NCBI GenBank assembly: GCA_000002445.1 | Contig: CP000068.1 | Location: 1,544,199 to 1,608,198, forward strand | Direction: 5' to 3' | Origin: Trypanosoma brucei | Taxonomy: Eukaryota | DNA: 64,000 bases | Part shown: piece after piece, positions 2,163-62,640 of the stretch | Position numbering within the stretch: the stretch's first letter is position 1 | Layout of the letters: each line of letters begins with the position of its first letter | The notes under the pieces: generated by a model | Told to the model about the DNA's origin: nothing | The model's database searches: none | What the model saw: only the letters and a program-made list of their open reading frames with translations | Program-made: the position numbers and the translations under genes

Positions 2163-3260
2163 TCACCATGGACGTTTTGGGACGTCACTTCGACTTAATA
2201 AATCTGGCGGCCCATTGGAATGGCGGCTCGGGTGAAGCCTTTGCTGCGGTTTCATTGTAATACTGTCGCAAACAATACGGTTGCCATTCACTTCCATGGA
2301 TCGCATTAAAATTCTTTTCACATGCATTACATAATGACAATCTTGCATATCCACCGTTAATAACCCCTCAATTTTAAATTTATTCTTTATAACTTCCACG
2401 ACCATAATATCTTCATTGAGTGCTCTAAAATCAATATATGTTTCGACATTTCTGAATTTAATTTCTGATTTTACTAATTTTATCAAAAGCTCATAATCAA
2501 CAATTTTCTTAACTACATCCCTTGATAGTGTGGACGCATAACCTATTGTGTGCCATGTAATTTCGTCACTAAATTCTTTAGGATAACCAACCGCTCTTGC
2601 CACATTCAATTTCTCCATTGGCAATATTTCAAGGCACTGTAACAACAATGGCACCCTCATAAAAATATTATCATCTGCTTTCATTATATAAGGGTTTGTT
2701 GGCTTGAATAATTACACTGCAAATTTAAACTACAGATACGTGTTTCTACTCATCGTGAGTTCTGCTTCCCATCCCCAATTACACCCCTCTCCAACTTTTT
2801 TATCTGCTGTAGGATTTACATCGCAAACTGGTAAAATAATAATATCCTGCTTTAACTCCGCCTCTTCTTCAGCGATTACTCTGAGCTCGCAATTGTTATT
2901 TGTATGAGGTGAAAGGGTATATACTACAGACAACTTCCCAGTAAAATTATTTACCTTCCTTGCCGCTTCGGGATAACTCCAACACGTTTCCCTCTGAAGG
3001 TTGCGCCTTCTGAATCTCCCATCATTATCTATGGAAGGTATTCCAGCTACAACCAAATAATCGTCGGCTTTCCAAATCATCCTTACATCTTTCGAAACAA
3101 ATTTAATACACTCATCCTCAACAACTTCTAGTGAAATAGTGTCACACACGTCAAATAAGCTGTATAGTGACGTTCCTAAATTAACAGAAATAACAATTAA
3201 AAAAAGTAAACTATCATTAACCAAATAGTTTGCAAATACTTTATAAGATGCTATTCCCAT
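2163..3260 (-). pseudogene. ESAG-like / glycosyltransferase-like subtelomeric type-II membrane protein gene, split into two ORFs (2730..3260 and 2163..2684); family uncertain (ESAG3-like?).
   Basis: There is an N-terminal hydrophobic segment (SLLFLIVISVNLGTSLYS) and an IWKADDYLVV motif reminiscent of the GT DxD region. It is related to the ORFs at 25036-26001 and ~55700-56560, and an internal 540 bp is duplicated at 12591-13130. Confidence 0.35.
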
Positions 3261-8748: not shown

Positions 8749-10024
8749 CTGCTTGCGTGTGTGAGTGATGCTGCTGGTGAGGTGTCTGTGGAATTGGCTG
8801 GTTGGTTCTGTCGTTGCGAAAGTGGCGGAACAAAAGATATATATTCTTGGTGTGCTGCTGAGATGCGTGCCTACGATGCTAGTACATAGGCTGAGCCGTA
8901 GAATTTACACTTTTAATTCCATGTTAATTTGTTTGACATCTATATCTATTTAATCTATTGGTTCGTAAATCCGATTGTTCAACTCTTAAAAGTACTTTTC
9001 ACACTACTACACCTGAAAAATCAAAACTCAAGGTTTCTAATCTTCTCTATTTCCAGACAATTCTGCGTTACATTCCGAATTAATAACCAAGTTCCGCCAT
9101 TGCTTCTTAAAAAACGATTACTTTTCGCTCATATTTTGATCATGTGGCGTTAAGTTGTTCCGATGCCGTTAAATGCTGGGTCATTTTTGTAGCTAACGTA
9201 CCTTGTGTGACGCTTTTATCTTCACTAATACGCGCCACTAACTCACCATATGCAACCGCTTTTATACGGATTAGTCTCTGTTTAGAAGCTCTTAATGGTT
9301 TACCTGTATACAAATATGGAATTAGAGGAATTGTGTCTCTAATTCACTTTACTTCATAGAGATACGCTATTTTCTCCTATATGAGCTATTTAAAGACGTT
9401 TCCAAGTTTTTATTCTTATTTTTCTGTCAGCAAAAATCTATTATTGGTACTGGTTTTTAAATTTTCATCCTAAAAGTATTATATTATTTCCAGAAAATAT
9501 GTGTCATTATTACTATACATGATGAGACTACTTTGACATTATTTCACATCTACCTAACACCTTTCCCAACCTTCTTAATCTTATTCTTTACATCTGAAGA
9601 TTAGGGTACGACATCAGATTAAAAAACGAAGTCAATACCATCTCTACTTTTTCACCAATACATTTTTTGTGAGCTATAAGGCACAGTCTCCTGTACTGTT
9701 CTCTTCTGTGCTCTGCTGCCAGAGCTACCGTTGGTTTACTCAGTTTTTTAATTCCGTCCCTTTGGCTTACTAAAACTGTCACTTCATGTAACGTACGTAC
9801 TCCCTTTATCCTCTACGTTGAATTCTGTATCTCCTTCATTTCACTTCTAACGTATTCTTGTGTATGATGCCTCTATCCGTCATTTATATGTATGAAACCG
9901 CGCATACCCAAACTCCTTCTTTGTATCTTTCTCATGGCCACTACCCTACTCATTTCCCTTGCACCTCTCCCATTTTTTGAAGAGCTTCGATTTTCCTCTT
10001 TCATTCGGTTGCCACAACCACCCT

Positions 10025-10196
<172 letters not shown>

Positions 10197-11949: not shown

Positions 11950-12590
11950 TGCTGTTCGCTGAAGTACTAATTTTCGCTTGGTTAGGGACTTGTTGGTTGT
12001 ATAACAGTTGAAGATACATCGATGCCGGGTTGTATTCTGGTTAATTTCCGCAGAAATGCTGCAAATTTGAAACCGTGTAATCTCGCTATGGTTGAAGTGT
12101 TACTTATTATGCCGCTTATCAGCCGTTATTGCCCGTTTTAAAGGTAATACATCTGACTATGCTCATTGTTTTTTCTTTTCGTTGATGGTAAGGAACATAA
12201 TGGTACTGCCATAAAAAGTGACAGCTTCAGCAATTCATTTATAAGTCGCTCCATTCGTATGATAACAGGTGGCAGCTTCAGCTTGTAGTGAGGTGCATGT
12301 TCGGTGTTTGCCACTGCGCCTTCAACGTGGAAATCTCTGCTTTTGCTTATTTTTGCTGCGAACTTTCCGTGATTTTGGGAATGGCGCAGCGAAACATTAT
12401 GCTTGTGTGAAGCCATGACCGCTTAAGTGTCACCTTATGTGTCGGAAAGATATACGGTGATTGATAAGGTTTAAAAGTCTTTAAATTTTCAACCGCTGTG
12501 TGAAAACATCTCTTAACAATATATTGACATAAACTCAGACGTAAAAAATACCCTTTCATTTATACAGCTGACACGTTTCCTCACATTCCC

Positions 12591-13148
12591 CACATTCAAT
12601 TTCTCCATTGGCAATATTTCAAGGCACTGTAACAACAATGGCACCCTCATAAAAATATTATCATCTGCTTTCATTATATAAGGGTTTGTTGGCTTGAATA
12701 ATTACACTGCAAATTTAAACTACAGATACGTGTTTCTACTCATCGTGAGTTCTGCTTCCCATCCCCAATTACACCCCTCTCCAACTTTTTTATCTGCTGT
12801 AGGATTTACATCGCAAACTGGTAAAATAATAATATCCTGCTTTAACTCCGCCTCTTCTTCAGCGATTACTCTGAGCTCGCAATTGTTATTTGTATGAGGT
12901 GAAAGGGTATATACTACAGACAACTTCCCAGTAAAATTATTTACCTTCCTTGCCGCTTCGGGATAACTCCAACACGTTTCCCTCTGAAGGTTGCGCCTTC
13001 TGAATCTCCCATCATTATCTATGGAAGGTATTCCAGCTACAACCAAATAATCGTCGGCTTTCCAAATCATCCTTACATCTTTCGAAACAAATTTAATACA
13101 CTCATCCTCAACACCTTCTAGTGAAATAGTACCACCTTCACCAAACAA
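12591..13148 (-). pseudogene. Internal fragment of the ESAG-like gene; near-identical copy of 2601-3141
   Basis: About 540 bp are >99% identical to 2601-3141, with flanks diverging on both sides. Confidence 0.6.
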
Positions 13149-20471: not shown

Positions 20472-20973
20472 CCCTGGCGATGCCGGCCACATCAATGTTG
20501 TGCCAGGGTCCAGTACCCCGTATCATCGAGGGAAGCCAAAAGCTAGCAGCGTTCCTTTCATGGGGAACACTGCTTTGCTCCGACTACGGCATCATACAGC
20601 ACAGGAATCAGCAGCGTCTTGCTCGGACACCATTTTTCATTTGTCTGTCCCTGGACACGTTGCTAGCATGCCATCAGCAGTATCATCCGCACTAAGATGC
20701 TGCTGTCCGGTGATGTGGAACTCCAAAAAAAGGATTGCCAATTGACATCTTTGGGAGAGTCCAGGGTGGGAGGCTTCTCGCCCCATCTGCTGTATTCCGT
20801 TCATATGCGGAAATACAACAAAAATTATAGAGGGTGTGTTAGGATGAATAAAAAAGGGAGACTCTGCCACAGTCGCCAGACCGATAGCATCTCAGGGCTC
20901 TACGGTGATGGCTGATAGCCGCGACAGTGGGGGGAAACTCCCACGAAGGCACGAAGAAAATTCCAAAAAAGAA
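20472..20973 (+). mobile_element. RIME: RIME (ribosomal mobile element), a non-autonomous ingi-family retroposon of ~502 bp
   Basis: It starts ccctggcgatgccggcc. The 3' ~230 bp (20730-20960) are near-identical to the 3' end of the ingi fragment at 61180-61410. It ends in an A-rich tail and is flanked by a 12-bp direct repeat. Confidence 0.8.
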
Positions 20974-20985
20974 ATCCATTCTTGT
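20974..20985 (+). repeat. Target-site duplication, right copy (atccattcttgt)
   Basis: See the left copy. Confidence 0.75.
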
Positions 20986-34715: not shown

Positions 34716-35839
34716 TGTTCTCGCTATATTTTAGTCTATGCCTGCTATTTTATCCTGTAGGTGTAATCTGCATAGTTTTTTTGTAGTGAAAGGACACATT
34801 TTAGTTGGTCTCCAGGATGTACGTTACACGCCTACTGTTAGTGTTACCTCGTCGCTGTCGCAACAGATTATACTTTTCGACATCGGTATGAATCTTGTGC
34901 TGTGCTGGGCTGGTCTACTGTACACTGCCTCTCCTTTTGCCGTCGGACAGGTCCTTCTGGCACAAAAAGGGCAGAAGGGAACCCCCATTTTGTTCCAGTT
35001 CAACGCCACATTGATCAGCTATTGAACTCCTGTTGTTGTAGCAGTCTGCCGCCGGTGACTCAGCTGGTTGAAGCAGTGGCTACCATATCTGCTGTTCTTT
35101 ATTCTAGGTTTTGCCTTTTCCAAGCTGTTCGACAATAAGTTGTGCGGAAATGAAGAGCTTTCACTGCGAGTAACAGAACCATTAGGACAATTGCCTTGAT
35201 GAACCTCTAGAATGTCTCGTTTGACTGTGTGTAGTATGCTCACTGAATTACATTCCTTTGAACGTTGCCGCACTTCAATTCCTAATTTATGCAGTTTAAT
35301 AAAATTATTACCAACTTATCAGCATAATCTATTAAAATCCTCTAGTTATGCCAGCGTTCACACAGAAAATAAATGCATGACGCTTCTACATAAATATTGC
35401 TGATTTTTGTCACTAATGTATAGCGGAAGGTCCACCATCAAAAAAAGCTACAGTAGACGTCATCATTTCTGCAGTATAATTTATTCTTTTTCCGTTAAAT
35501 ACGTGGCATAACTGGCTCCTTTTATATCATTTCCTCCTGTTACTCACTGTATTTTTGGGTGCTCTTTCATTTAATTTTGGATTTTTCTCCCTTGTCTTAT
35601 TCTTTTGAATATGCAGATCATATAGCGAGTCAATCTATCCAGGGCACTGCATTACGTCTTTTCAGAATGTTCTCTCTGTCATCTCTTTGTATATAATGAT
35701 GTCTATTGCCATTTCTGTGGTTGAAGCTGCGCATATTACACCACCACTTTCTCCTTATTGTCTATCAATCCTACTCACTCTCATTGCACCATTTCCATTT
35801 ATTTAACTTTTACTATTTCGACAGTGCGTTTAGCATTTA

Positions 35840-36060
35840 GCATAACTCTTATTATAATATTAGTATATACACACTCACAACACTCTTCTATTATTATTAT
35901 CATAATTATTATCATTACTTCTCTTATCATAATATTCGTATATACACACTCACAACACTCTTCTATTATTATTATCATAATTATTATCATTACTTCTCTT
36001 ATCATAATATTCGTATATACACACTCACAACACACTCTCCTATCATTATTATAATTATTA
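35840..36060 (-). repeat. 70-bp repeat array of ~3 units
   Basis: agtatatacacactcacaacactcttctattattattatcat, three times. Confidence 0.9.
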
Positions 36061-36422
36061 CACCAATAATCAACTTTAATACCAAATATGTTAATTTTAC
36101 TTGAATTAAAAACTTTAAAATATGCATATTTCTTTCAAAAGTGTTAAAATAGGTCAAATTTTATAAATTTTTATAAAATTCTTAAAAAGCTACCAAAGTC
36201 ACAAAGCAACACCAATTAGAGCCAATTTCTTATCCAAATCAAAACAGGAACCTTTGCATTTTTCTTCTATCCAGCCGCAAACAGATTTCTCATCTGCTTT
36301 GACATTCTTGTTTTCTGCCTCACAAGCCTCTTTTTTCGTGTGATCGTAACACTTTTTACCAGTCTGGGTCCCTCCTGTTCCTGCTTGTGTTGCTTGTTGT
36401 GCTGCTGCTGTCGTATTCAATT
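35952..36422 (-). repeat. Segmental duplication copy A (~470 bp, >99% identical to 39080-39549), spanning 70-bp repeat, 3'UTR and the last ~75 codons of the VSG
   Basis: Direct reading of both stretches shows one mismatch or indel. Confidence 0.9.
36141..36156 (-). promoter_or_regulatory. VSG 3'UTR 16-mer variant (gtgttaaaataggtca)
   Basis: Duplicated identically at 39268-39283. Confidence 0.6.
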
Positions 36423-37755
36423 CGCAGTGTTTTCCTGTTTCATCAGTTTCTTTCGTCCATTTGCAGTTTCCATTCTTTCTGCATTCTGTTGCTTTTTCTA
36501 TTACTGCGCAGTTTTTAGTTACTTTTTCTGTTTCAGGTGCGGTCTTGTCGTGTTTTGCCGTTTCTATTTGCTGCGGCCGCTCGGTGTACAGCAGTGCTTG
36601 CACTAGTTGCTTTTTAGCTTTCAGTTGCCTTGCGGCCTCCTTTCTTATTTGCACTGCTTGCTCGTGTTTGCGCAGTTGGCTTGCTATCTCAGAGAGTCCG
36701 CTGAGCCACGGGATGTCCGTCACTTTCGCCGTGCCGTCCGTGCCGAGGTCAGTGTACTTGACACACATGCCGCCCCCTTGGAGGCCTGTGCATGTGCCGG
36801 CGATGGTTTTTCCTAGTGTTGCTTGACCGCTTTTCCTTGCTATCAATCCAGTGACTGCCGCTAACCGCGATTCTAGCGAAGCGGCTGATAGTTTATGTTT
36901 GGTTTTGAGATCGCAGAGCTTTACAGCTTGTGAGATTACTGTTGCCGGTGGTGCAGAAGCGGCGTTCCAGTCAGTTGTCAGTCCTGTTGTGTGTTCACAG
37001 GCTTTTTGTTCGCTGCCGGCTTTAGATTGGTCTGCTGTGCAGATGCAAATCAGGGCCGCCGTTACTGTTTTAGCAGCGTTGGTTTGTGTCGTGCCGTCGC
37101 AATATCCGGCCCTGTTGCTCGCTGTTGGCGATGTAAACAGCTTTGTTGCGGCAGCGGGTGGTTCGGCGTCTGGGTTTCCGCCGTAGATTTGCTCGTTTAG
37201 TAGTGTTTTCAGCTTTTCGTCATTTAGCAGATGCGTTTCGGGCGCATCGGCTGTCGCTAGCGACTCTATCGCTTCGGCCTCGGCTGTTATCCTGGCGACT
37301 GCCGCCCGAATTGACACACGCTGCTCCTGCGTCATTGCTTGTAGCTTGTGTTTTGTCAAAGCTTCTTTCTGTCCGTCTGCTTTTAATAGCGACTCAGCTG
37401 CGGTTTTCCATTTTGGCCACCTTCCGGGCCAGTCTTTGTGCTCCCTGAATTCTGCTTCCGGAAAGTCTCGCGGCTTCTCCCTGGCATCGGTTTGCCGGAA
37501 AATGTCAAGCCAGCTGCTATCTGCCAGCGACATATTTAGCTCTAGTAGATCTGCCATGTCTTTACCGAGTTGTGAGTCGCTCGACTCCAGAGCTGCGCGC
37601 CCATTTGCTAATTCGATTAAGCCGCAGAGGGCTCCTCTCTCCCGCACATTGTCGTCTGCTGCTATGTTTCCGCGCGCGGTCTGTGTCGTTAGAACTATAG
37701 CAATAACTATCGCCACTTGTAGATGACTGCCGTGTCTTTGTGGCAGTGGCGGCAT
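36199..37755 (-). CDS. VSG: VSG of 518 aa with signal peptide, N-terminal domain and CTD intact; the GPI signal is truncated by in-frame stops (..KLALIGVAL*LW*LF)
   Basis: MPPLPQRHGSHLQVAIVIAIVLTTQTARGNIAADDN..LNMSLADSSW.. CTD CKWTKETDETGKHCELN...[26 protein letters not shown]. Confidence 0.75.
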   Translation of the reverse strand: MPPLPQRHGSHLQVAIVIAIVLTTQTARGNIAADDNVRERGALCGLIELANGRAALESSDSQLGKDMADLLELNMSLADSSWLDIFRQTDAREKPRDFPEAEFREHKDWPGRWPKWKTAAESLLKADGQKEALTKHKLQAMTQEQRVSIRAAVARITAEAEAIESLATADAPETHLLNDEKLKTLLNEQIYGGNPDAEPPAAATKLFTSPTASNRAGYCDGTTQTNAAKTVTAALICICTADQSKAGSEQKACEHTTGLTTDWNAASAPPATVISQAVKLCDLKTKHKLSAASLESRLAAVTGLIARKSGQATLGKTIAGTCTGLQGGGMCVKYTDLGTDGTAKVTDIPWLSGLSEIASQLRKHEQAVQIRKEAARQLKAKKQLVQALLYTERPQQIETAKHDKTAPETEKVTKNCAVIEKATECRKNGNCKWTKETDETGKHCELNTTAAAQQATQAGTGGTQTGKKCYDHTKKEACEAENKNVKADEKSVCGWIEEKCKGSCFDLDKKLALIGVAL

Positions 37756-38914
37756 TACGACGTTTACTAGTTTCTTCTTTTTAAAGGATGTGCGTTGAAG
37801 CTGAGGCGTTGGTTTTTTTTGTTACAGTTTGGTGGTATAGAAGATTGATATTTGGTGTTCACTGCCTTGCCGACTTTTTTGAGCAGCCAAAGCTAGAGAT
37901 ATTTTGTTTAAGGCTGAATCGGTAACGGTTATAAAATGGAAGTGCTTATCTTTTGTGCTCGTTTAGTAAGATTATGTTTCCGCCTTATAGAAGATGTATG
38001 TGAGCTTCTATGGGAAATCTCCATAAGTTAAAAACTAATTGAGCTTTTGGTATCTTTTTTGCATTTACAGCAGGCACGCATCCTTTGAACACTGGATTTA
38101 CAAAATTACGCTCAAAAACGACCTAAATATTGGTTTTAGCTATATTTTAACTCTTAATTCTAATATACGGCGCTCTATATCTGTAACTATTGCATCTTTC
38201 CTTCACATTCCCAATTCCCTGCCTGTCTACTTTTAAAAAACGTTAGATGGGTCTGTAAACGTAAAAAAATTGGAATTTATGATTGTCACTTTCTTCTATC
38301 AACTTTTTCCTCCTATGTTTTCCCTGAGCTTCGAAGCACAAGATAACACTGTTGCTTCTCGCACACGTGGCCCCTCTTTTCCTCTTTTTTTGGAGTGGTG
38401 ATACTGAGTTCCTCAGATTTTCGAAATTGGAAATTTCTGTGCAGACGTATGCTGCTAATCTTGGTCTGTCGGTTACCATTATATGATTTACGCTTGGTTT
38501 AAATTGCTTTATCGCCGGTCCGTATATCAACACGGATTTTTTTGCTATCGCCATTAATTTTCTTTACTTTATAGAAATAGTCTGCGGTTGCATCTGCGTG
38601 TATTATTGTTCACTCATTGCTGTTGCTAGCCGGGGGTTCGGTCAGCCGTCTACGCCTCAGTATTCGCCATGCACGCCGCGCTATATGCATTGCTTGTGCC
38701 GCTTCTATATGGTTCGTCGGTGTCTGGTTTTGTCTTGATACGTGTGGCGCCCCTTTTTGGCTGCCCTCGCTTGAAAATACGTATAAGCCAGTCGTTGCTG
38801 GCCAGCATCTTTTTCAACAATACACTTTTTGAATCCTTTCCTTCTATTATACTGCCGACACTGGTTGTACTCCTGTCGCTTGTCGCGTTCAAGCGACAAC
38901 AATCATCTTTGTAA

Positions 38915-39190
38915 CGTTTTAGTATACACACACTCACAACATTCTCCCATCATTATCATCATCATCATCATTACTGCTCTTATTATAATATTAGTATATG
39001 CACACTCACAACACTCTTCTATTATCATCATAATATTTATTACTGTTCTTATTATAATATTTGTATATACACACAGTCACAACACTCTTCTATTATTATT
39101 ATCATAATTATTATCATTACTTCTCTTATCATAATATTCGTATATACACACTCACAACACACTCTCCTATCATTATTATAATTATTACAC
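38915..39190 (-). repeat. 70-bp repeat array of ~4 units
   Basis: gtatacacacactcacaacattctcc... repeated with (att)n tracts. Confidence 0.9.
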
Positions 39191-39549
39191 CAATAATCAA
39201 CTTTAATACCAAATATGTTAATTTTACTTGAATTAAAAACTTTAAAATATGCATATTTCTTTCAAAAGTGTTAAAATAGGTCAAATTTTATAAATTTTTA
39301 TAAAATTCTTAAAAAGCTACCAAAGTCACAAAGCAACACCAATTAGAGCCAATTTCTTATCCAAATCAAAACAGGAACCTTTGCATTTTTCTTCTATCCA
39401 GCCGCAAACAGATTTCTCATCTGCTTTGACATTCTTGTTTTCTGCCTCACAAGCCTCTTTTTTCGTGTGATCGTAACACTTTTTACCAGTCTGGGTCCCT
39501 CCTGTTCCTGCTTGTGTTGCTTGTTGTGCTGCTGCTGTCGTATTCAATT
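39080..39549 (-). repeat. Segmental duplication copy B of 35952-36422
   Basis: See copy A. Confidence 0.9.
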
Positions 39550-40944
39550 TGCACTGGGGGCCATCTTTCGCGTCATCGCCCTCCCATTTGCAGTTACCAT
39601 TCTTTCTGCATTCTGTTGCTTTTTCTAGCTTTGCGCATTCTTTTTTTTAATGTCTGCTGTTTCTGCGCTGTTCTCTACTACCTTTTAGATTTGTTTGTGT
39701 GGTATGTCTAGTTCAGCGTTGTTGAGATTGTGGATTATGGCATACGAACTGTTGACTACCTGCTTCAGTTGATGAGTGAGCATCTTTGTCTGTTGACATG
39801 CTTCGTCGTAGATTTTAAATATGGTCCCTAGGGATTCTAGGTACTCAAGCCAGGGTATCTTGCCCGCCGCTATTTTGCCGCCGCTTACATAATTTGCATA
39901 TTTGACGCACACTCCGTTGGTGGCTGTTCCTTCGCAGTTTTTAGTTCCTGCGATTGCGCCTAGATAGCCGCCGGTGGAGTCGACTATTATTGGCTGTCTT
40001 ACCTGTCTCGCCAGATGGCGTAGGCTTTCGGCCTGTAGTACGGTGGCCGCTGGCTGCGGGCAGTGCTTTATGAGTTCGTTCCGTGCTGTGCTGCCTGATA
40101 TCGCACTGCCGCTAGTTCATGCATGGCCTAGAGTGACGCTGTGGTGGCAGGGGATGGCAGGGCTGCCTACACTGTCCTTCATGCACACGCACGTCAGCAC
40201 CGCCGCTATCGTCGTCGCTTTGTCGCCATCGCAGTCCGTTGCTCGTGTGTCCGATTTGCGTGTGAAAGCCGTCGCCGCTGTGAAGGTGGTCCCCGTGCTT
40301 TTATCGCCGTAAACGATTTTTCTTAGCTTCTCTGGGGCTTCGGTTATATCCTTGTCCTGCAGCCTCGGTTTTAGTGCATCGATCTGCTTTTTGAGCACGC
40401 CTGCCGTGTGCGCCGCTGACGTTTTGTGAACACGTGCCAGTTTTCTCGCTAAGCCCTCAAGCTTGTTGGCCTGCAGTTTTTTTATCCTTTCGGGTGTTGT
40501 AGCCATGTCGGAGAGCTTTTTTGCTGCTGCACTCCAGAGTGGCCAGTTTTTCGTCCACGTATCGTCTACGAGGTCTTCTGTTATGCCGGCTTTCTGAGCT
40601 ATTTCGGCTTTTGTGCTCTTTGGATTGCTGTCCCTTAAAATATTCCGCCATTTTTCGTTCGCCACAGATATGTTTAGGTCGACGATGCCAGTGATCTCGG
40701 TGTCGGCGTCGCTTTCGTAGTTAAGTGCCTTAGGTGGTGAACGGCCTAAGTTGACTAGGTCGCAGAGCGTGTCGAACAGTGCTGCAATGCCACCGTCCGC
40801 TATCGCGGCATTTACTGGTAAGAGCAGCCTCAATAGAATGCCAGTGTTAATAGCATTAGACGGTGCATCTTGCGCACAGTACGACTCACTTTTGTTGTGC
40901 CTATTCGCCTCTTGCTGTGCTTTTGCTTCAGTAGAACGAAACAA
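39326..40944 (-). pseudogene. VSG: Mosaic or chimeric VSG pseudogene. The last 73 codons plus 3'UTR are identical to the VSG at 36199, joined to a different N-terminal domain (ORFs 39685..39912 and 40117..40944) through frameshifts.
   Basis: ORF 39326..39547 is identical to the C-terminal 73 aa of ORF 36199..37755. The upstream ORFs encode the N-terminal domain (..LNISVANEKWRNIL.. CVCMKDS). Confidence 0.65.
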
Positions 40945-42119
40945 GTGCTGAATAATGGTTGGGAGTGGCAGTTGCTTCTATTTCGTCTGGATTTTTGAAG
41001 AACAAAATTTCCGAATCTGACCTGCAGTCTCGTGTGCTTCTGTGGTTATTCTTTTTATTCTTTTGTTGACTGTTGCTTGCTTTTGTCTTGTGTCAATCCG
41101 CTTGAATCTTTTTTTGCCTTCCTTACCAACCAGTGTTTTTAGTTTTTTTTTCCAAAACCCACGCCGCTTAAATTTATCGTTTTTTGCCATCACCGCGATT
41201 TAATTCGGTGTTTTTCCTTCGAATCACCTTGCATTTGGTGTTGACAGGTTGAGAAGGGTTAAGTCTTGAAGTTCTGTTGTGCTTTCAAGCGACGCCGGTG
41301 ACGCTTCTACTAGTCGCTTCAGTTCACAGCCGACGCGGTATTTCACTACGCTATCGCTGGAGGCTGTGAAGGCGGGCTGATTTACATTTATTATTGTTAT
41401 TAGCGTTCACTCAATTAAGTGAAACACGTTAGGTTCTTCCCTTATGACTGGAGCTTTATTGGAAAACTGAATTTTAAATTGATTGGTGCCGACGTTTATA
41501 TCCGCGTGGTTCTTGTTGCCTTCAAAGAAAATTATGAATTATTTAGCACTTTAATTTGGAGAAAGCAACCTAATAAGCCTTAGGTATCTATGCCTACCGT
41601 AATTGAGCCTTACGAGCGTGTGAAGTTAAATATAAATATTAATGAAAAGTATTCTGTTTGCCTAAGGTGCATTTCCACAAACACATTTTTTTAAAATGCT
41701 AAGGATCATTCGCTGAATGCAGCTCCTAGCAAAGCACATTAGAATTCACAAAAAATAAAAAAAACACAGGCATCACCATCTTTTAAGCAATAGTATATAT
41801 CTATTTTTGAGTAAAATGTGCACCATAATGTCCTCTTGTAGCATTACCACTTGTACCATCTGTGTGGTTGCGCATACTGCTGTTTCATTCTCTATTTTAT
41901 TTCCTTCTTTTCAACTTTCTTTCACCATTTATATCGACAAGGGAGTGGGTCTATTTGGCCTGCTCACTGGAATTTGTTTCCGTATCATTTTCCTCTCCAG
42001 TCTCTGTATCTCTGATGATGCTCATAGCCATGTTCGTCTTTAAAACTGCGTATATTTCATCTCCTTTTATTTCCTTCTTTTTTTGTTTCCTTAAAAAATA
42101 TTCCTTGTGTTCTGTTAAA

Positions 42120-42195
42120 TCCCTTTTACACACACACACACTCACACTCACAAAAATCCCCTAGCATTATTATTATTATTACTATTGTCATTAAC
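42120..42195 (-). repeat. 70-bp repeat (single; (ac)n-rich variant)
   Basis: cacacacacacactcacactcacaaaaatcccctagcattattattattattact. Confidence 0.6.
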
Positions 42196-42391
42196 TGTTA
42201 GATATAACCCTAACCATAATTAATATCCAATATAATAAATAAAACAAAGAAATTAGAAAGAATTTCAAAATATCGCTAATTTTTCATACCCTATCACCCT
42301 GCTTCTTGACACCTGTGCGCTAAACTCATATATATTTGAGGAAAATTGTATTTTTAAAAAATTTACCGAACTTGCACTTTTCTATCAAATA

Positions 42392-42407
42392 GTGTTAAAA
42401 TGAAACA
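42392..42407 (-). promoter_or_regulatory. VSG 3'UTR 16-mer variant (gtgttaaaatgaaaca)
   Basis: Position 3' of the VSG tail at ~42540. Confidence 0.45.
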
Positions 42408-42539
42408 AAATTTATACTTTTCACGAATTACATCAAGATATCGTATTTTATTTAATTTTATGAAGTTGAGAAATGATCCTTAAAATTGTAAAATGCTCTA
42501 TAAGTCACAAAAGCAGCAGAAATCAAAGCTAATTTCTTA

Positions 42540-44004
42540 TTTACAAGAAAAGTAGTATCTTTGCAAGTTTTACCGTCTAACATACACTTTGGGACTTTTC
42601 AATCATCGTTTTTAGCGTGTTTCGATCACTTTGAGTCAACTTTCTCTTGTTTGTTTGCTTCTGCAGCGGCTTCTTTTGTTATTGTGCACTTTTTGTCTTG
42701 GGATTTGCAGAAACAAAATGACAACTTGGAGTCTTGTTTCAAGAAGTTTCATTTTGATCCTCTATCGCGTTGCAAATTTGCTCTTGTGTTTTCGAGGCTC
42801 CTTTGTTAATTTGCTCTTATAATTCTGCAATTTTCCTTTTTAAAGCTTTGGTATTGATGTCCTGGTAGTATGCTAGTGTTGCCGTTAGGTCCTTCAGTGT
42901 TGAAAGTGATGTCAATGGAACTTTGTCCGTGCCTTTGGCATTGGGGTTGTGGACTTGTGCTGAGGCGAAAGCAGTGTTGTATTCTTTTGCCATTGCTCCT
43001 TTGTCTCCAAAGGCACCTCCGATCTCATCCTTTATGACGGCTTCCTCAGTTTGCCCTATTGTATCTTTCTTTTTAACTAGCATGGCATAGATTGTCCTGA
43101 AGTCAGCACTTTCTTTGAGCTGGTCGGCTGTCTCGAATTTGTAACTTGCCGGGGTGTACTTTGTTGTTAGGTAAGCGTCGTGTGCTGCTTTGAGCGTGGG
43201 TGCCGTCCCTTCGGCTGTGCTTAGGGATACCGTTGCCCGCCTTTGCATGCCGTCGTTGTGGATGTAGTACAGTCCTGAAGCGAAGGTCGGGCTCCCTTGT
43301 ATTGCGCTGTCGCCGTTGGCGCCGTCTAGTAGTCTTGAACTTGCTTTGGCTGCTGTTATTGCACACGTGTCCGACGTGGTGTCGGTGTTCGCGGCTACAT
43401 CTGCATCTTCTTGCAGCCCGCCGTCGTAGCCTGTTTGTGTGAAATGGTTTGTCGCCGTGTCAACCGTTGTTAGTGTGGCGGTTGAAATTTTACAGCCTTC
43501 TGAGTTGCCGGCAAAGGCCGTACTGTGAGGCCTGTGGCTATTGCTGCCTGTCTCTTTCTCTAAGCAACCGTCAGCTCCGCTCGTCGTTGATATTTGTGCC
43601 ATTGCGCCTATGAAATCCCTGATGGAGCCCTCAGCTCTGGCGGCATCTCTTATAGCTGATGCTAGCTTGCCTACTGCGGTCGAGGTTAGCTCGTTTGCTG
43701 CTACGTCCGCTTTGTATGCATAGTAGGCTAGGAGTGCCCTATCGGCTGCTGTATAGGTCCCGTTTCTGTAGGCTTCGGTATATATTGCTGTTCGAAAGTA
43801 CTGTTTTAAGTAGTCGTTTACCGTTGCCATAGGTGTCGCCAGTCTGTGGGCGGCTTTTTGTTCTACTTTGTCTAATTCGCTAGCCAGTTGGCATGCCGCT
43901 GTCCAACCATTTGCTTTGAGCCGTCCTCCAGCTCCTGCATCGCCCATTTGCAACGCCCAAAGCAGAATCACACTTATGATTGCTATTTGCTGACTTTGCT
44001 GCAT
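42540..44004 (-). pseudogene. VSG: VSG with an intact B-type N-terminal domain (395-aa ORF 42817..44004) and a CTD riddled with in-frame stops
   Basis: MQQSQQIAIISVILLWALQMGDAGAG signal peptide. The N-terminal ORF ends KRKIAEL*. Downstream frames give ..ICNAIEDQNETS*..SAQ*..KSQSVC*TVKLAKILLFL*. Confidence 0.7.
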
Positions 44005-58890: not shown

Positions 58891-59829
58891 GTGCGCAGCA
58901 TGAAATTCATGCTGATGTGTGAGTCACGAGGCGGATGTTTGCGGCGCAGTGCTGAGGAAGTATACCACAGCAAACACCCAGTCAGAGCCCTACATTCCCG
59001 CATCATGCGGTCCTACCCCCACCTCCGCATTGAGCCACGCGAGCACCCACTAGAGACATCGACGCTCCGCCACAGCTGCCGACCTCTATTTCACACGCAG
59101 ATAAAGCCTGTGTGCGCTGATGACCCTGACGATGTCAAAAGGGAGGCTCATGAAAAGTGGATTGCACGGCATTTTGCACGGAGGGGGAAGGAGCCACCGC
59201 GACGAGAGCACTACGAATTGTGGACTGATGGATCCGTGTCCCTCGGTGAGAAGTCCGGAGCAGCTGCCCTGCTCTATAGAAACAACACGCTGATTCGTGC
59301 ACCAGAGACCGGAGCAGGGGAACTCTCATGCAGTTACAGAGCGGAATGCGTAGCATTAAAAATAGGACTGCAACGGCTGCTGAAATGGCTCCTGGCATAC
59401 AGAAGCACACCGAGCAGGTTGTCTATCTTCTCTGACTCGCTGTCAATGTTAACAGCACTGCAGACAGGCCCCCTAGCCGTAACGGACCCAATTCTAAGAC
59501 GACTATGGAGGCTTCTGCTTCAAGTTCAGAGAAGGAAGGTGCGTATCCGACTGCAATTTGTGTTTGGCCATTGTGGCGTGAAACGGAATGAGGTTTGCGA
59601 TGACATGGCCAAAAAGGCCACTGATTTACCACAGTTGCGAGACACATGGATCCCCGACATCATTGCTTATGCGAAGCGAGTGCTTAGGTCGGAAGAAGTC
59701 TATGAAAACACTCATAGGTTTGGTATCGCGGGCAACCACTTTCCAACAAAACATAAAGAAGAACTGACGAGGGAAGAAGAAACGGCACTGGCACGCTTTC
59801 GGGTTGGGTCTTCAAGGCACTATGGATAG
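58891..59829 (+). CDS. ingi ORF segment with the RNase H domain
   Basis: The ORF terminates in an in-frame TAG at 59827-59829, directly followed in the same frame by the zinc-finger ORF. Confidence 0.65.
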   Translation: MRSMKFMLMCESRGGCLRRSAEEVYHSKHPVRALHSRIMRSYPHLRIEPREHPLETSTLRHSCRPLFHTQIKPVCADDPDDVKREAHEKWIARHFARRGKEPPRREHYELWTDGSVSLGEKSGAAALLYRNNTLIRAPETGAGELSCSYRAECVALKIGLQRLLKWLLAYRSTPSRLSIFSDSLSMLTALQTGPLAVTDPILRRLWRLLLQVQRRKVRIRLQFVFGHCGVKRNEVCDDMAKKATDLPQLRDTWIPDIIAYAKRVLRSEEVYENTHRFGIAGNHFPTKHKEELTREEETALARFRVGSSRHYG

Positions 59830-61140
59830 ATGTTGCGAAAGATCAACCCGAGTGTGCCTCCACAGTGCCGATGGTGTAACCCGCAACATGCAGCGATAGG
59901 GCCAACAATACAAGTACAAGCAGCCCCAACTGTTGCGACACGCACTCTTCAGAGGACCTCCGAACCGACCAAATGTACGGAATGTGATGACACATACCAG
60001 TGCCGCTCGAGTGCTGTAACGCACATGGTAAACAAACATGGCTTTGTGCGAGCTGATGCCCTCCGGAGGATCAAATACGGCGATGCAACACCTGCAGTGG
60101 ATATCCCCCCGGAGCCCCCTCCAGTGGCGGCGATCGTTCCTCTACCATCGAGCACACGAGTCCATATGAGACCGCAGGTGCTTTACTGTATCCTCTGTGC
60201 TTTCAAATTCGCAGTGCCAGGCCGACTATTACACCACCTTAGAACAATACATGGCATAAGCAGCGGTAGTTGCCGCGTGAAAAGGGGGCGAGAAAACGAG
60301 GACTCATTGCAAGGAGATGGTAGCGTCCCAGCAGCGCCAGCCCCTCAGGATACACGGAAGCTGCCGTTTCAATGTGACCTGTGCGTGGTGAGCTTCGGTA
60401 CACGTTCTTCCCTGTCACTACACAAGAAATTCAAACATAAGAGCATAGTGACGGAGGACGGTACCGTGGTGGTGGTGCAATTCCCTCGTAAGCGTGCCCG
60501 TGAGGGAAACGTTGACGTCCCGGGGAAGGGAGAGGTGCAGTGTGGTGTGTGCCAAAAAGTGCTCAGTTGCAGGGACTCCCTCATCCGACACTGTAAGGCT
60601 TTCCACAAAGGTGAGGGAGTCGAGCTTAAATGCAGCAAAAGCACAAAATTGTGTGCCACTGATTCCCCGCATACAAACACATCCATGTTGGTGTGCCCGA
60701 CATGCGGAAGGCAGTGTGCTAGCAAAACTGGCCTCACCATACATCAAAAGAAGATGCGCGGTATGAAGGTAGAGCACGCTGCTACCAGCCAACGCGGCCA
60801 CTGCGAAGAAACGTCGCTGCACTTGATGAGCTGTCCCGGTTTGAAGGATTTACGTGTCAGGTTTGCGGTAGAAGGTGAGTGTGTGTGTGTGCAGGATGTA
60901 TGTTTTTCTAAGAGGCTGGCGCAGTTTCTCATTGCGGCTGAACGGAGCCGGCTGCAGGTGAAGTCTTCACCTAATGTAACAGTCATACAACCCACTCTCC
61001 CTTCTACAACTTCCCCCCTTATTGCCGAGTGTGGAGCTAGCAGGAAAAGCACCGGACGCAGGAATAGTCCAGACACCCTCAGAGACAGAGGGGGTATGCA
61101 ATCAACAAGCAACAGAAACAGAAAGAGGGAGAGAGAATAA
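59830..61140 (+). CDS. ingi ORF C-terminal segment with C2H2 zinc fingers (L1Tc/ingi-type nucleic-acid chaperone region)
   Basis: CTECDDTYQCRSSAVTHMVNKHG; LYCILCAFKFAVPGRLLHHLRTIHG; FQCDLCVVSFGTRSSLSLHKKFKHK; CGVCQKVLSCRDSLIRHCKAFHKG; CPTCGRQCASKTGLTIHQKKMRG. Confidence 0.65.
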   Translation: MLRKINPSVPPQCRWCNPQHAAIGPTIQVQAAPTVATRTLQRTSEPTKCTECDDTYQCRSSAVTHMVNKHGFVRADALRRIKYGDATPAVDIPPEPPPVAAIVPLPSSTRVHMRPQVLYCILCAFKFAVPGRLLHHLRTIHGISSGSCRVKRGRENEDSLQGDGSVPAAPAPQDTRKLPFQCDLCVVSFGTRSSLSLHKKFKHKSIVTEDGTVVVVQFPRKRAREGNVDVPGKGEVQCGVCQKVLSCRDSLIRHCKAFHKGEGVELKCSKSTKLCATDSPHTNTSMLVCPTCGRQCASKTGLTIHQKKMRGMKVEHAATSQRGHCEETSLHLMSCPGLKDLRVRFAVEGECVCVQDVCFSKRLAQFLIAAERSRLQVKSSPNVTVIQPTLPSTTSPLIAECGASRKSTGRRNSPDTLRDRGGMQSTSNRNRKRERE

Positions 61141-62199
61141 TAAACGAATAACAAAAATCAAAACAAAAGGATTGCTAATTGACATCTTTGGGAGAGTCTG
61201 GGGTGTGGGGACTTCTCGCCCCATCTGCTGTATTCCGTTCAAATGCGGAGCTACAACAAAAAATTATAGAGGGTGTGTTAGGCTTAATAAAAAAACGGAG
61301 ACTCTGCCACAGTCGCCAGACCGATAGCATCTCAGGGCTCTACGGTGATGGCTGATGGCCGCGCCAGTGGGGGGAAACGCTCACCAAGGCACGAAGAAAA
61401 TTCCAAAAAAAAAATAGAGTTGAATTAACTACTGTTGCGATTCTATCCATGGAAGTGGCTTCTCATGGTTGCTTTGGTAGAGACAGTTTGAAAAATTGAA
61501 TCACTACATTTTTGTTTCTTTTTCTTTACTCTTTGATCTCGAAACTGTCATTTGATTCCCCTTATTGGGCGCATGGCTTTGCTCGGCTATCATCGCTATT
61601 GTTACGCAAATAACGTTTGGCCTCAGCCGCCAGTTTGAATGCCTTTTGATCTTTTTTTAACTTACACTTATTTACGGTTTGGATTATAATCGCAGAAATA
61701 TAATCAAAACTACCTACCCTTCCCCCACATTTCTTATCGGTGTCTATCGCTACTTCCATAGAATAGACTTTAATACTCTATAAGTCGATTCTATTTGAAG
61801 TTATAGGTTATTAACGGTTGCTGTATTCGCATTAAAACTTCAGCTAAGTCATCTACAGTGTTCATCCTGTGCGAAATATGTAGAGCAATCTCTTCCTCCT
61901 TTTGTATTATATCACAATATACTTTGTAGTCTAGACTATTCTATGGTTGTATTCTGTTATTTTCGTTATTAAACATATTGAGTGGCTTCTGTGGATTAAA
62001 TGCCGACCCGTAGGCTTGTCCACTGGGCACTGTATTTCTTCATTATCGCCCTCTTCAACATTTTCTTGTGTATAATTGTACACATCGTCATGTGTTTGAA
62101 GTTGCACATATTACATCTCCAACTATCTCCAGCATTTACTCCAACCCCACACTTTAAATTGCTTTAACTACTTCTATTTTGATTACCTATTTAGGTCTC

Positions 62200-62640
<441 letters not shown>

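What the first reader, a model, noticed from the sequence alone, without database searches (positions are those of the whole stretch)
35952..39549. A ~470-bp near-perfect duplication copies the 3' end of one VSG cassette onto a neighbouring VSG, creating a mosaic
35952-36422 and 39080-39549 are essentially identical, with one mismatch or indel. The block covers the last 70-bp repeat unit, the junction, the 16-mer 3'UTR and the final 73 codons of the VSG at 36199. Upstream of 36422/39549 the two genes diverge abruptly into different CTD and N-terminal-domain sequence. This is a fresh gene-conversion tract with its 5' breakpoint inside the C-terminal domain coding region, the kind of segmental conversion thought to generate mosaic VSGs, caught here between two adjacent silent array genes.
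Basis: seen in the sequence. Interest (0 to 1): 0.7.

Follow-up and report, generated by a model that had tools for sequence, protein, structure and literature searches.

The report
Shared 3' end of neighbouring VSGs
Two adjacent silent coat-protein (VSG) genes of Trypanosoma brucei carry a 473-base stretch that is identical to the letter. It was almost certainly copied from the intact gene onto its dead neighbour by gene conversion, which makes it a clean but ordinary example of how this antigen archive remodels itself.

Summary
Window 35950-36422 equals 39077-39549: 473 bp, no mismatch, 3127 bp apart, genes on the minus strand. The block holds the last 73 codons of VSG A (36199-37755), namely the CTD linker, CTD subdomain 2 and the GPI signal. 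It also holds the stop codon, the 3'UTR with a variant 16-mer, and 1.5 units of the downstream 70-bp repeats. The 119 other pairs of equivalent 3' modules in the window are 59-70% identical, so family conservation does not explain it.

The window is the T. b. brucei TREU927 reference. A's counterpart in strain EATRO1125 (VSG 1125.456) already has this C-terminus, truncated GPI signal included, so A is the likely donor. The recipient B (about 40944-39326) is a multiply broken pseudogene. Its CTD is a patchwork: 44 bp A-like (43/44), 34 bp native-type, then 473 bp A-identical.

The best reading is a homology-bounded, non-reciprocal conversion from A to B, anchored in a 70-bp repeat core and in the CTD. 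In pattern it is a "3' donation", not an epitope-changing mosaic, and the donated module is itself defective. Conversion among silent VSGs is already known. This is a new instance of a known process, and interest is low to moderate.

The parts
35950..36422 (-). Copy A of the 473-bp identical block. It holds the last 73 codons of VSG A, the stop codon, the 3'UTR, the spacer and 1.5 units of the downstream 70-bp repeats. Inferred donor.
   Evidence: 100% identity at offset 3127; reading frame.
39077..39549 (-). Copy B of the 473-bp identical block, forming the 3' end of pseudogene B. Inferred recipient.
36199..37755 (-). VSG A: an uninterrupted 518-aa ORF with a type-B N-terminal domain, a two-subdomain CTD and a truncated GPI signal (...KKLALIGVAL*).
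   Evidence: ORF. (Pfam VSG_B 9e-66, Trypan_glycop_C 2e-17). (96% identical to EATRO1125 VSG 1125.456, which has the same C-terminus).
39326..40944 (-). VSG B pseudogene with a type-B N-terminal domain. It has no ATG, in-frame stops near 40119 and 39687, a frameshift in an A-run before the CTD, and a further stop near 39640.
   Evidence: three-frame translation; Pfam VSG_B and CTD fragments; best relative P0009, 70%.
39584..39627 (-). A-like patch in B's CTD subdomain 1 (43/44 identical to 36457-36500). It encodes (L/I)EKATECRKNGNCKW.
   Evidence: (D4). Protein comparison with P0009, P0010, P0007 and P0012.
39550..39583 (-). 34-bp patch in B that differs from A (12/34 identical to 36423-36456). 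It encodes EGDDAKDGPQCK, the type found in B's relative P0009 (EGPDEKDGKHCK), so it is native B-lineage sequence or a later short import.
35846..36060 (-). 70-bp repeat array downstream of VSG A: 2.9 units, period 75, homogeneous (94% matches; units 1 and 2 are 99% alike).
   Evidence: (D1).
38919..39187 (-). 70-bp repeat array downstream of B: 3.7 units, heterogeneous (79% matches). Unit 1 and the gene-proximal half of unit 2 are A-type and the rest differs. The junction lies in the core (plus strand TCACAACAC) of unit 2 at 39076/39077.
36141..36156 (-). Variant of the VSG 3'UTR 16-mer (TGACCTATTTTAACAC, 2 mismatches to TGATATATTTTAACAC). The identical copy is at 39268-39283.
36182..36213 (-). 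Disrupted GPI-signal coding end. The present frame stops at 36199-36201 (GVAL*). The +1 frame continues FVTLVAF* to 36182-36184. This implies a 1-nt loss in the T run 36203-36205. The same sequence lies in copy B at 39309-39340.
   Evidence: frames; intact GPI signals of relatives P0002, P0009. The deletion itself is an inference.

Best explanation
A single non-reciprocal homologous recombination event (gene conversion, most simply by synthesis-dependent strand annealing after a lesion in or near the 3' end of cassette B) copied the 3' module of VSG A onto the adjacent upstream cassette B in a silent subtelomeric array of T. brucei TREU927. The copied tract runs from the CTD to the second 70-bp repeat unit downstream. 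It carries the inter-subdomain linker, CTD subdomain 2, the frameshifted GPI signal, the stop codon, the 3'UTR with its variant 16-mer, and the spacer. One end was resolved in the conserved core of a 70-bp repeat. The other was resolved in CTD subdomain 1, where the tract is discontinuous: 44 bp A-like, 34 bp native, then 473 bp A-identical. That pattern is what short-patch mismatch repair of heteroduplex or a template switch would leave. The product is a chimeric pseudogene: B body plus A 3' end. Shown: the identity, its boundaries, the state of both genes, and that A's C-terminus predates the split from EATRO1125. Inferred: the direction, the one-step mechanism, the initiating lesion and the timing.
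For: Identity is 473/473 with sharp flanks. The pair is an outlier against 119 other 3'-module pairs at 59-70% and against all other cassettes in the window. Among 1.84 billion representative proteins, only A's counterpart 1125.456 has this CTD (99%), and the next best are 57-62%. So this is not a common CTD family. Donor A: 1125.456 (EATRO1125) is 96% identical over all 518 aa and shares the last 73 aa, with one D/Y difference and the truncated GPI end. Recipient B, first line: its CTD subdomain 1 combines an A-type motif (CRKNGNCKW, elsewhere linked to TKETDETGKHC in A, P0010, P0007, P0012) with the EG.D.KDG..C motif of B's own relative P0009. Recipient B, second line: its 70-bp array is a hybrid of A-type and other units, whereas A's array is homogeneous. 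Both boundaries lie in sequence that VSG cassettes share, namely the 70-bp core and the CTD cysteine framework. B's body, B's upstream region and A's upstream region have no other copy in the window. Literature: the silent archive evolves by gene conversion (PMC1868767; PMC3472502; PMC3467770). CTD-located junctions with short identity are common (PMC3708902; PMC13233330). Short-patch mismatch repair occurs during T. brucei recombination (PMC1904282).
Against: The pre-event state of B's 3' end is not available, so direction and single-step origin rest on indirect arguments. A two-step history gives the same end state. The tract (473-551 bp) is about 20 times longer than the mean conversion tract estimated for silent VSG N-domains (14-25 nt, PMC3472502). 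It is also longer than the mean insertions at the active site (41-70 bp, PMC13233330), so it is not the typical micro-conversion. The original A/B homology at the CTD end was probably low (about 60-75%), which is poor substrate for RAD51-dependent recombination. No read-level evidence for the assembly was available.
Confidence: 0.55

Rival explanations
1. Two-step history. Unequal exchange between the 70-bp repeat arrays flanking cassette A first duplicated the whole cassette in tandem. Then a canonical VSG cassette conversion, from an upstream 70-bp repeat to the CTD, replaced the body of the upstream copy with a B-type pseudogene from elsewhere. A's 3' module was left behind, as a '3' donation' at a silent locus. 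On this reading the 473 bp are a remnant, not the converted tract.
For: The hybrid 70-bp array between B and A has A-downstream-type units next to B and different units next to A. That is exactly what an unequal crossover between A's two flanking arrays would give. Canonical conversions start in 70-bp repeats and end in the 3' coding region or UTR (PMC1868767). Retention of the resident CTD is frequent at expression sites: 57% of expressed sequences in PMC3708902. Individual VSGs are known to be duplicated within and between arrays (PMC3467770). The patchy junction in CTD subdomain 1 is equally compatible.
Against: It needs two events within the time in which 473 bp gathered no substitution. 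It needs an unobserved, nearly identical donor copy of B's body. The repeat upstream of B is a single degenerate unit (about 42130-42200) unlike the units next to A. Nothing else of a former A copy survives upstream of 39627.
Confidence: 0.25
2. B received the module from a third locus that carries the same 3' end as A, for example a paralogue of A elsewhere in the genome. Adjacency to A would then be coincidental.
For: Subtelomeric VSGs recombine ectopically, independently of locus (PMC3472502; PMC3467770). Only 64 kb of the genome could be examined.
Against: The only known protein with this CTD is A's counterpart in another strain. No third copy exists in the window. The identity extends into the 70-bp repeat units that are specific to A's own downstream array.
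Confidence: 0.07
3. Assembly or finishing artefact: sequence from A's 3' end was wrongly placed at B's 3' end in the reference.
For: VSG arrays are repeat-rich. No reads were available here. A second perfect tract of about 0.5 kb exists in the same window (2600-3123 = 12590-13113).
Against: The window is from the finished TREU927 reference (exact matches to XP_845142.1 and XP_845143.1 on a 1,608,198-bp record). A 473-bp repeat is shorter than a Sanger read and far shorter than clone inserts (general knowledge). A misjoin would normally delete the 3.1 kb between the copies rather than paste an in-frame, homology-bounded block. The junctions fall in homologous positions (a Cys codon of the CTD, the core of a 70-bp unit) and the junction region is patchy. 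That looks like recombination and repair, not misassembly.
Confidence: 0.07
4. The identity reflects selective conservation of a functional CTD/3'UTR module, not recent copying.
For: CTDs and VSG 3'UTR elements are more conserved than N-terminal domains (about 40% vs about 20% identity; PMC1868767).
Against: All other module pairs are 59-70% identical. The identity covers synonymous sites, spacer and repeat DNA alike. The module is degenerate, with a truncated GPI signal and a mutated 16-mer, and sits in a pseudogene.
Confidence: 0.01

Closest known systems
'3' donation' during VSG switching (Hall, Wang and Barry 2013, PMC3708902; from memory, first seen as the 'altered 3' end' of expression-linked copies, Bernards et al. 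1981)
   Same: Two VSGs with unrelated N-terminal domains share an identical 3' part. The boundary lies in the CTD-coding region, with only local homology. The exchanged part is buried or non-antigenic. It allows, or here merely accompanies, damaged 3' ends.
   Different: Described for the active telomeric expression site, where the resident CTD is retained and the incoming N-terminal domain is new. Here both partners are silent, chromosome-internal array cassettes. The tract continues past the 3'UTR into the next cassette's 70-bp repeat, and the product is a pseudogene.
Canonical duplicative transposition of a VSG cassette (70-bp repeat upstream; 3' coding region or UTR downstream; PMC1868767, PMC4858185)
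   Same: It uses the same two homology blocks, the 70-bp repeat and the CTD/3' end, as conversion boundaries.
   Different: The identical tract here is the complement of the classical cassette. It runs from the CTD to the downstream 70-bp repeat, so the 'linker' between two genes is shared rather than the gene body (unless the two-step rival is true).
Diversifying micro-conversions among silent archive VSGs (Gjini et al. 2012, PMC3472502)
   Same: Non-reciprocal exchange between silent VSGs in the TREU927 archive. The 34-bp divergent patch at 39550-39583 is of the size they infer.
   Different: Their tracts average 14-25 nt, were inferred in N-terminal domains of highly similar pairs, and add differences. 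This tract is 473-551 bp, lies in the CTD, UTR and repeat, and homogenises two otherwise unrelated genes.
Mosaic VSG formation by templated repair at the active VSG (Nature 2026, PMC13233330)
   Same: Templated, non-crossover homologous repair. There is a strong bias of natural junctions to the C-terminal region, and short perfect identity at the junctions.
   Different: Those events occur in the transcribed expression site, mostly insert 41-70 bp from closely related family members, and did not involve 70-bp repeats. Here the locus is silent, the tract is long and one end lies in a 70-bp repeat.

Membership tests
T. brucei silent-array VSG cassette | VSG N-terminal domain followed by a VSG C-terminal domain | tested here: met
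   A: Pfam VSG_B 9.2e-66 and Trypan_glycop_C 1.8e-17. B: VSG_B fragments (4.6e-29, 1.2e-4) and Trypan_glycop_C 1.4e-19.
T. brucei silent-array VSG cassette | 70-bp repeats upstream and a conserved 16-mer in the 3'UTR | tested here: met
   70-bp arrays at 38919-39187 (upstream of A) and 35846-36060, plus one degenerate unit at about 42130-42200 upstream of B. 16-mer variants with 2 mismatches at 36141-36156 and 39268-39283: 20 matches in the window against 1.3 expected.
T. brucei silent-array VSG cassette | Functional gene: start codon, open frame, complete GPI-anchor signal | tested here: not met
   A has an open frame, but its GPI signal ends at KKLALIGVAL*, 5-6 residues short of relatives such as KKLALISAAFLALLF. 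B lacks an ATG and has stops and a frameshift. Both are archive pseudogenes or 'atypical' genes, which is the norm for arrays (PMC1868767).
Segmental gene conversion of the '3' donation' type (Hall et al. 2013) | The shared or donated segment is confined to the CTD-coding 3' end, and the partners have low overall identity | tested here: met
   Identity starts at codon 446 of 518 of A. The N-terminal domains are unalignable at DNA level and about 34% identical at protein level in the best local patch.
Segmental gene conversion of the '3' donation' type (Hall et al. 2013) | Local homology at the boundary (>85% over 13-143 bp) | tested here: inconclusive
   A 44-bp stretch at 98% lies 34 bp upstream of the breakpoint. 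It may itself be part of the converted tract, and B's original sequence at the junction is unknown.
Segmental gene conversion of the '3' donation' type (Hall et al. 2013) | Takes place in the active telomeric expression site, retaining the resident CTD | tested here: not met
   Both genes lie inside a run of about 16 tandem minus-strand cassettes on the 1.6-Mb TREU927 chromosome record. No telomere or expression-site features are nearby.
Segmental gene conversion of the '3' donation' type (Hall et al. 2013) | Non-reciprocal: the donor is left unchanged | tested here: inconclusive
   A keeps the C-terminus of its EATRO1125 counterpart, which is consistent with an unchanged donor. A reciprocal product cannot be looked for without the ancestral locus.
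Mosaic VSG in the strict sense (epitope-changing assembly from closely related donors) | Donors are highly sequence-related family members | tested here: not met
   A and B bodies are unrelated beyond the domain type.
Mosaic VSG in the strict sense (epitope-changing assembly from closely related donors) | Segments within the N-terminal domain, giving a new intact, expressible gene | tested here: not met
   The tract lies wholly in the CTD, UTR and repeat, and the product is a pseudogene.
Silent-archive micro-conversion (Gjini et al. 2012) | Short imported tracts (mean 14-25 nt) that raise mismatch density between close paralogues | tested here: not met
   The tract is 473 bp perfect (551 bp with the patch) and homogenising. 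Only the 34-bp divergent patch fits this class.
Assembly artefact | Not supported by reads that span the repeat into unique flanks | not testable with these tools
   No read data. The source is a finished reference.

The most novel reading that the evidence does not exclude
The inter-gene 'linker' of a VSG array (CTD subdomain 2, GPI signal, 3'UTR and first 70-bp unit) behaves as a mobile module in its own right. It would be copied between neighbouring silent cassettes using the downstream 70-bp repeat as one homology anchor and the CTD as the other. Chimeric VSGs would then be made and stored in the silent archive itself, not only in the expression site, and defective or functional 3' modules could spread along arrays independently of N-terminal domains.
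Probability: 0.3. Interest if true: 0.45.

Novelty: new member of a known kind. Interest (0 to 1): 0.3.

Why it matters
The finding gives a dated-by-identity, base-resolved example of recombination between two silent VSG cassettes in the reference genome. Both junctions are mapped, one in a 70-bp repeat core and one at the boundary between the two CTD subdomains, and the junction region is patchy. Such examples can calibrate models of archive evolution. They show that long homogenising tracts exist beside the 14-25-nt diversifying ones. They also show that 3' modules, including non-functional GPI signals and mutated 16-mers, move independently of the antigenic N-terminal domain. The finding does not change the current picture: conversion among silent VSGs, CTD junctions and reliance on 3' replacement for damaged genes are all established.

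Tried and rejected
1. Orthologous loci in other strains could not be reached. Exact-protein look-ups for VSG A, two neighbouring VSGs and the EATRO1125 counterpart found no contig. The DNA collections on offer hold no trypanosome genomes.
2. The word-indexed protein search with the 108-aa CTD returned nothing. The exhaustive HMMER search replaced it.
3. The T. equiperdum relative of A (P0002, locus L001) is too diverged in CTD subdomain 2 and the UTR to serve as a DNA outgroup. It only helped to show what an intact GPI-signal end looks like.
4. No donor for B's 34-bp native-type patch, for A's corresponding patch, or for the A-versus-1125.456 variable patch exists in the window.
5. Marcello and Barry 2007, the primary analysis of this very archive, is not held in the library. 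What I say about it comes from papers that cite it.
6. Rfam found nothing in 35000-42500 and base composition shows nothing unusual.
7. The 2-bp 'indel' at the repeat junction was considered as a repair scar and rejected. It matches ordinary (CA)n length variation of 70-bp repeat cores: ACACACAC-TCACAAC in other arrays against ACACAC-TCACAAC in A's.
8. Conservation by selection was rejected.
Full report
**Observation.** At a constant offset of 3127 bp, every base of 35950-36422 equals 39077-39549: 473 bp with no mismatch and no gap (MAFFT alignment; repeat family D2). Just outside the low-coordinate end there is a 2-bp length difference, followed by ordinary 70-bp-repeat similarity. Outside the high-coordinate end lie 34 strongly divergent bp (12/34 identical). 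Then come 44 bp with one mismatch (36457-36500 vs 39584-39627), then about 35 bp at roughly 70%, then unrelated sequence.

**Anatomy.**
- The genes are on the minus strand. The window is a tandem array of about 16 VSG cassettes, marked by 3'UTR 16-mer matches (20 found against 1.3 expected) and 70-bp repeat arrays.
- VSG A (36199-37755) is an open 518-aa frame with a type-B N-terminal domain and a VSG C-terminal domain.
- Its 3'UTR carries a 16-mer variant with two mismatches (36141-36156). A homogeneous 2.9-unit 70-bp array follows at 35846-36060.
- The next cassette upstream holds VSG B (about 40944-39326). It has type-B N-domain fragments but no ATG, in-frame stops near 40119 and 39687, a frameshift in an A-run just before the CTD, and another stop near 39640.
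- B is followed by its UTR and a heterogeneous 3.7-unit array at 38919-39187.
- In gene orientation the block starts one base after the fourth cysteine codon of CTD subdomain 1. It runs through the linker, subdomain 2, the GPI signal, the stop codon, the UTR and the spacer, and ends in the core of the second 70-bp unit.

**Not chance, and not family conservation.**
- I extracted the equivalent 473-bp 3' module from 16 cassettes. The 119 other pairs are 58.8-69.6% identical (mean 64.7%, sd 2.1%), and this pair is 100%.
- A BLASTN of 35800-36700 against the window finds only 70-bp repeats elsewhere. The best other CTD match is 69.9%.
- An exhaustive HMMER search of A's last 108 residues against 1.84 billion representative proteins finds this CTD at 99% in one protein only. 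The next best are 57-62%.

**Source and direction.**
- Two other VSG ORFs of the window are exact matches to T. b. brucei TREU927 proteins XP_845142.1 and XP_845143.1 on a 1,608,198-bp record. The window is therefore the finished reference genome.
- The single protein with the same CTD is VSG 1125.456 of strain EATRO1125. It is 96% identical to A over all 518 residues and identical in the last 73 apart from one D/Y change, premature end ...KKLALIGVAL* included. A therefore owned this C-terminus before the two strains diverged.
- B's best relative (P0009, 70% over the N-domain) has a CTD of the same broad type, but diverged and with an intact GPI signal.
- B's own CTD subdomain 1 is a chimera. 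CRKNGNCKW goes with TKETDETGKHC in A, P0010, P0007 and P0012. In B it is followed by EGDDAKDGPQCK, the motif of P0009 (EGPDEKDGKHCK).
- B's repeat array is also a hybrid. Unit 1 and the proximal half of unit 2 are A-type and the rest differs, whereas A's array is uniform.
- All of this points to A as donor and B as recipient.

**State of the module.**
- Relatives end with a full hydrophobic tail, for example KKLALISAAFLALLF. In A and B the frame stops after GVAL, while the +1 frame reads FVTLVAF*.
- This indicates a 1-nt loss in the T run 36203-36205. That is an inference, and the loss is shared with 1125.456.
- With its mutated 16-mer as well, the donated 3' end is itself defective. Expression of such genes depends on replacement of the 3' end (PMC3708902).

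**Mechanism.**
- The best-supported reading is one non-reciprocal homologous repair event that used adjacent cassette A as template. One end was resolved in a 70-bp repeat core and the other in the CTD.
- The interrupted tract (A-like 44 bp, native 34 bp, A-identical 473 bp) fits short-patch mismatch repair, which is documented in T. brucei recombination (PMC1904282), or template switching. A later micro-conversion of the size inferred by Gjini et al. is also possible (PMC3472502).
- Main rival: tandem duplication of cassette A by unequal exchange between its flanking repeat arrays, followed by canonical 70-bp-to-CTD replacement of one copy's body. This predicts the same hybrid array and the same junction. 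It needs two events and an unseen donor of B's body.
- A third-party donor and an assembly artefact cannot be excluded without the whole genome and reads. Both are unlikely, for the reasons listed under the rivals.
- 'Fresh' is relative. A differs from 1125.456 by about one change in the 219 coding nt of the block, so zero changes in 473 bp is only mildly improbable (roughly 0.1-0.25 by my estimate) even for an event as old as the strain split.

**Comparison with what is known.**
- Gene conversion among silent VSGs is an accepted driver of archive evolution (PMC1868767; PMC3472502; PMC3467770).
- CTD-located junctions between otherwise unrelated VSGs are the defining feature of '3' donation' (PMC3708902). 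They dominate natural recombinants (PMC13233330).
- By pattern this is a 3' donation-like chimera, not an epitope-changing mosaic. By location (silent array, not expression site) and extent (continuing into the next 70-bp repeat; about 20 times longer than typical silent-archive tracts) it is a less commonly documented variety.
- The same window holds a second perfect tract (2600-3123 = 12590-13113, 524 bp) between non-VSG sequences 10 kb apart. VSG A shows a clustered patch of differences from its EATRO1125 counterpart (aa 319-368). Segmental exchange therefore looks routine here.

**Verdict.** This is a real, neatly bounded, probably A-to-B conversion of a defective 3' module onto a dead neighbour. 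It is a new instance of a known process, useful as a worked example but not surprising to a specialist. Interest is 0.3.

Noticed in passing
window 2600-3123 and 12590-13113: A second perfect segmental identity: 524 bp, 100%, same strand, 9990 bp apart. It lies inside ORF fragments with no Pfam hit that are otherwise poorly alignable. The edge at 2600 is abrupt and the edge at 3124-3170 tapers. It may be another recent conversion between array-associated non-VSG pseudogenes.
   Followed up: partly
window about 36650-36800 (VSG A residues 319-368): Of about 21 amino-acid differences between VSG A and EATRO1125 VSG 1125.456, 17 cluster in these 50 residues and the rest of the protein is nearly identical. 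This suggests a roughly 150-bp segmental replacement in one strain's copy. No donor was found in the window.
   Followed up: partly
window 36182-36213 (and 39309-39340): The GPI-anchor signal of VSG A ends prematurely (GVAL*). The +1 frame continues FVTLVAF*, pointing to a 1-nt deletion in a T run. The same truncated end is present in EATRO1125 VSG 1125.456, so the lesion is older than the strain split.
   Followed up: yes
window 58891-61140 (+), also 20725-20975 vs 61162-61415: Two adjoining plus-strand ORFs with RNase H and C2H2 zinc-finger hits look like an ingi-type non-LTR retroelement inside the array. A 254-bp stretch just after it is 91.7% identical to 20725-20975, possibly a retroelement or RIME end.
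   Followed up: no
window 42130-42200: The cassette of pseudogene B has only one degenerate 70-bp repeat unit upstream. Its neighbours have 3-4 units.
   Followed up: no
window 42458-42583 (-): The VSG upstream of B ends ...KKLALISAAFVTYRAFYNFKDHFSTS*, an over-long aberrant GPI tail. Its 16-mer has 3 mismatches. Damaged 3' ends seem common in this array.
   Followed up: no
window 62247-62585 and 10024-10196: Long tracts with 3-bp periodicity (TAA/TAT-type parts of 70-bp repeats) are 95-100% identical to each other across 52 kb.
   Followed up: no
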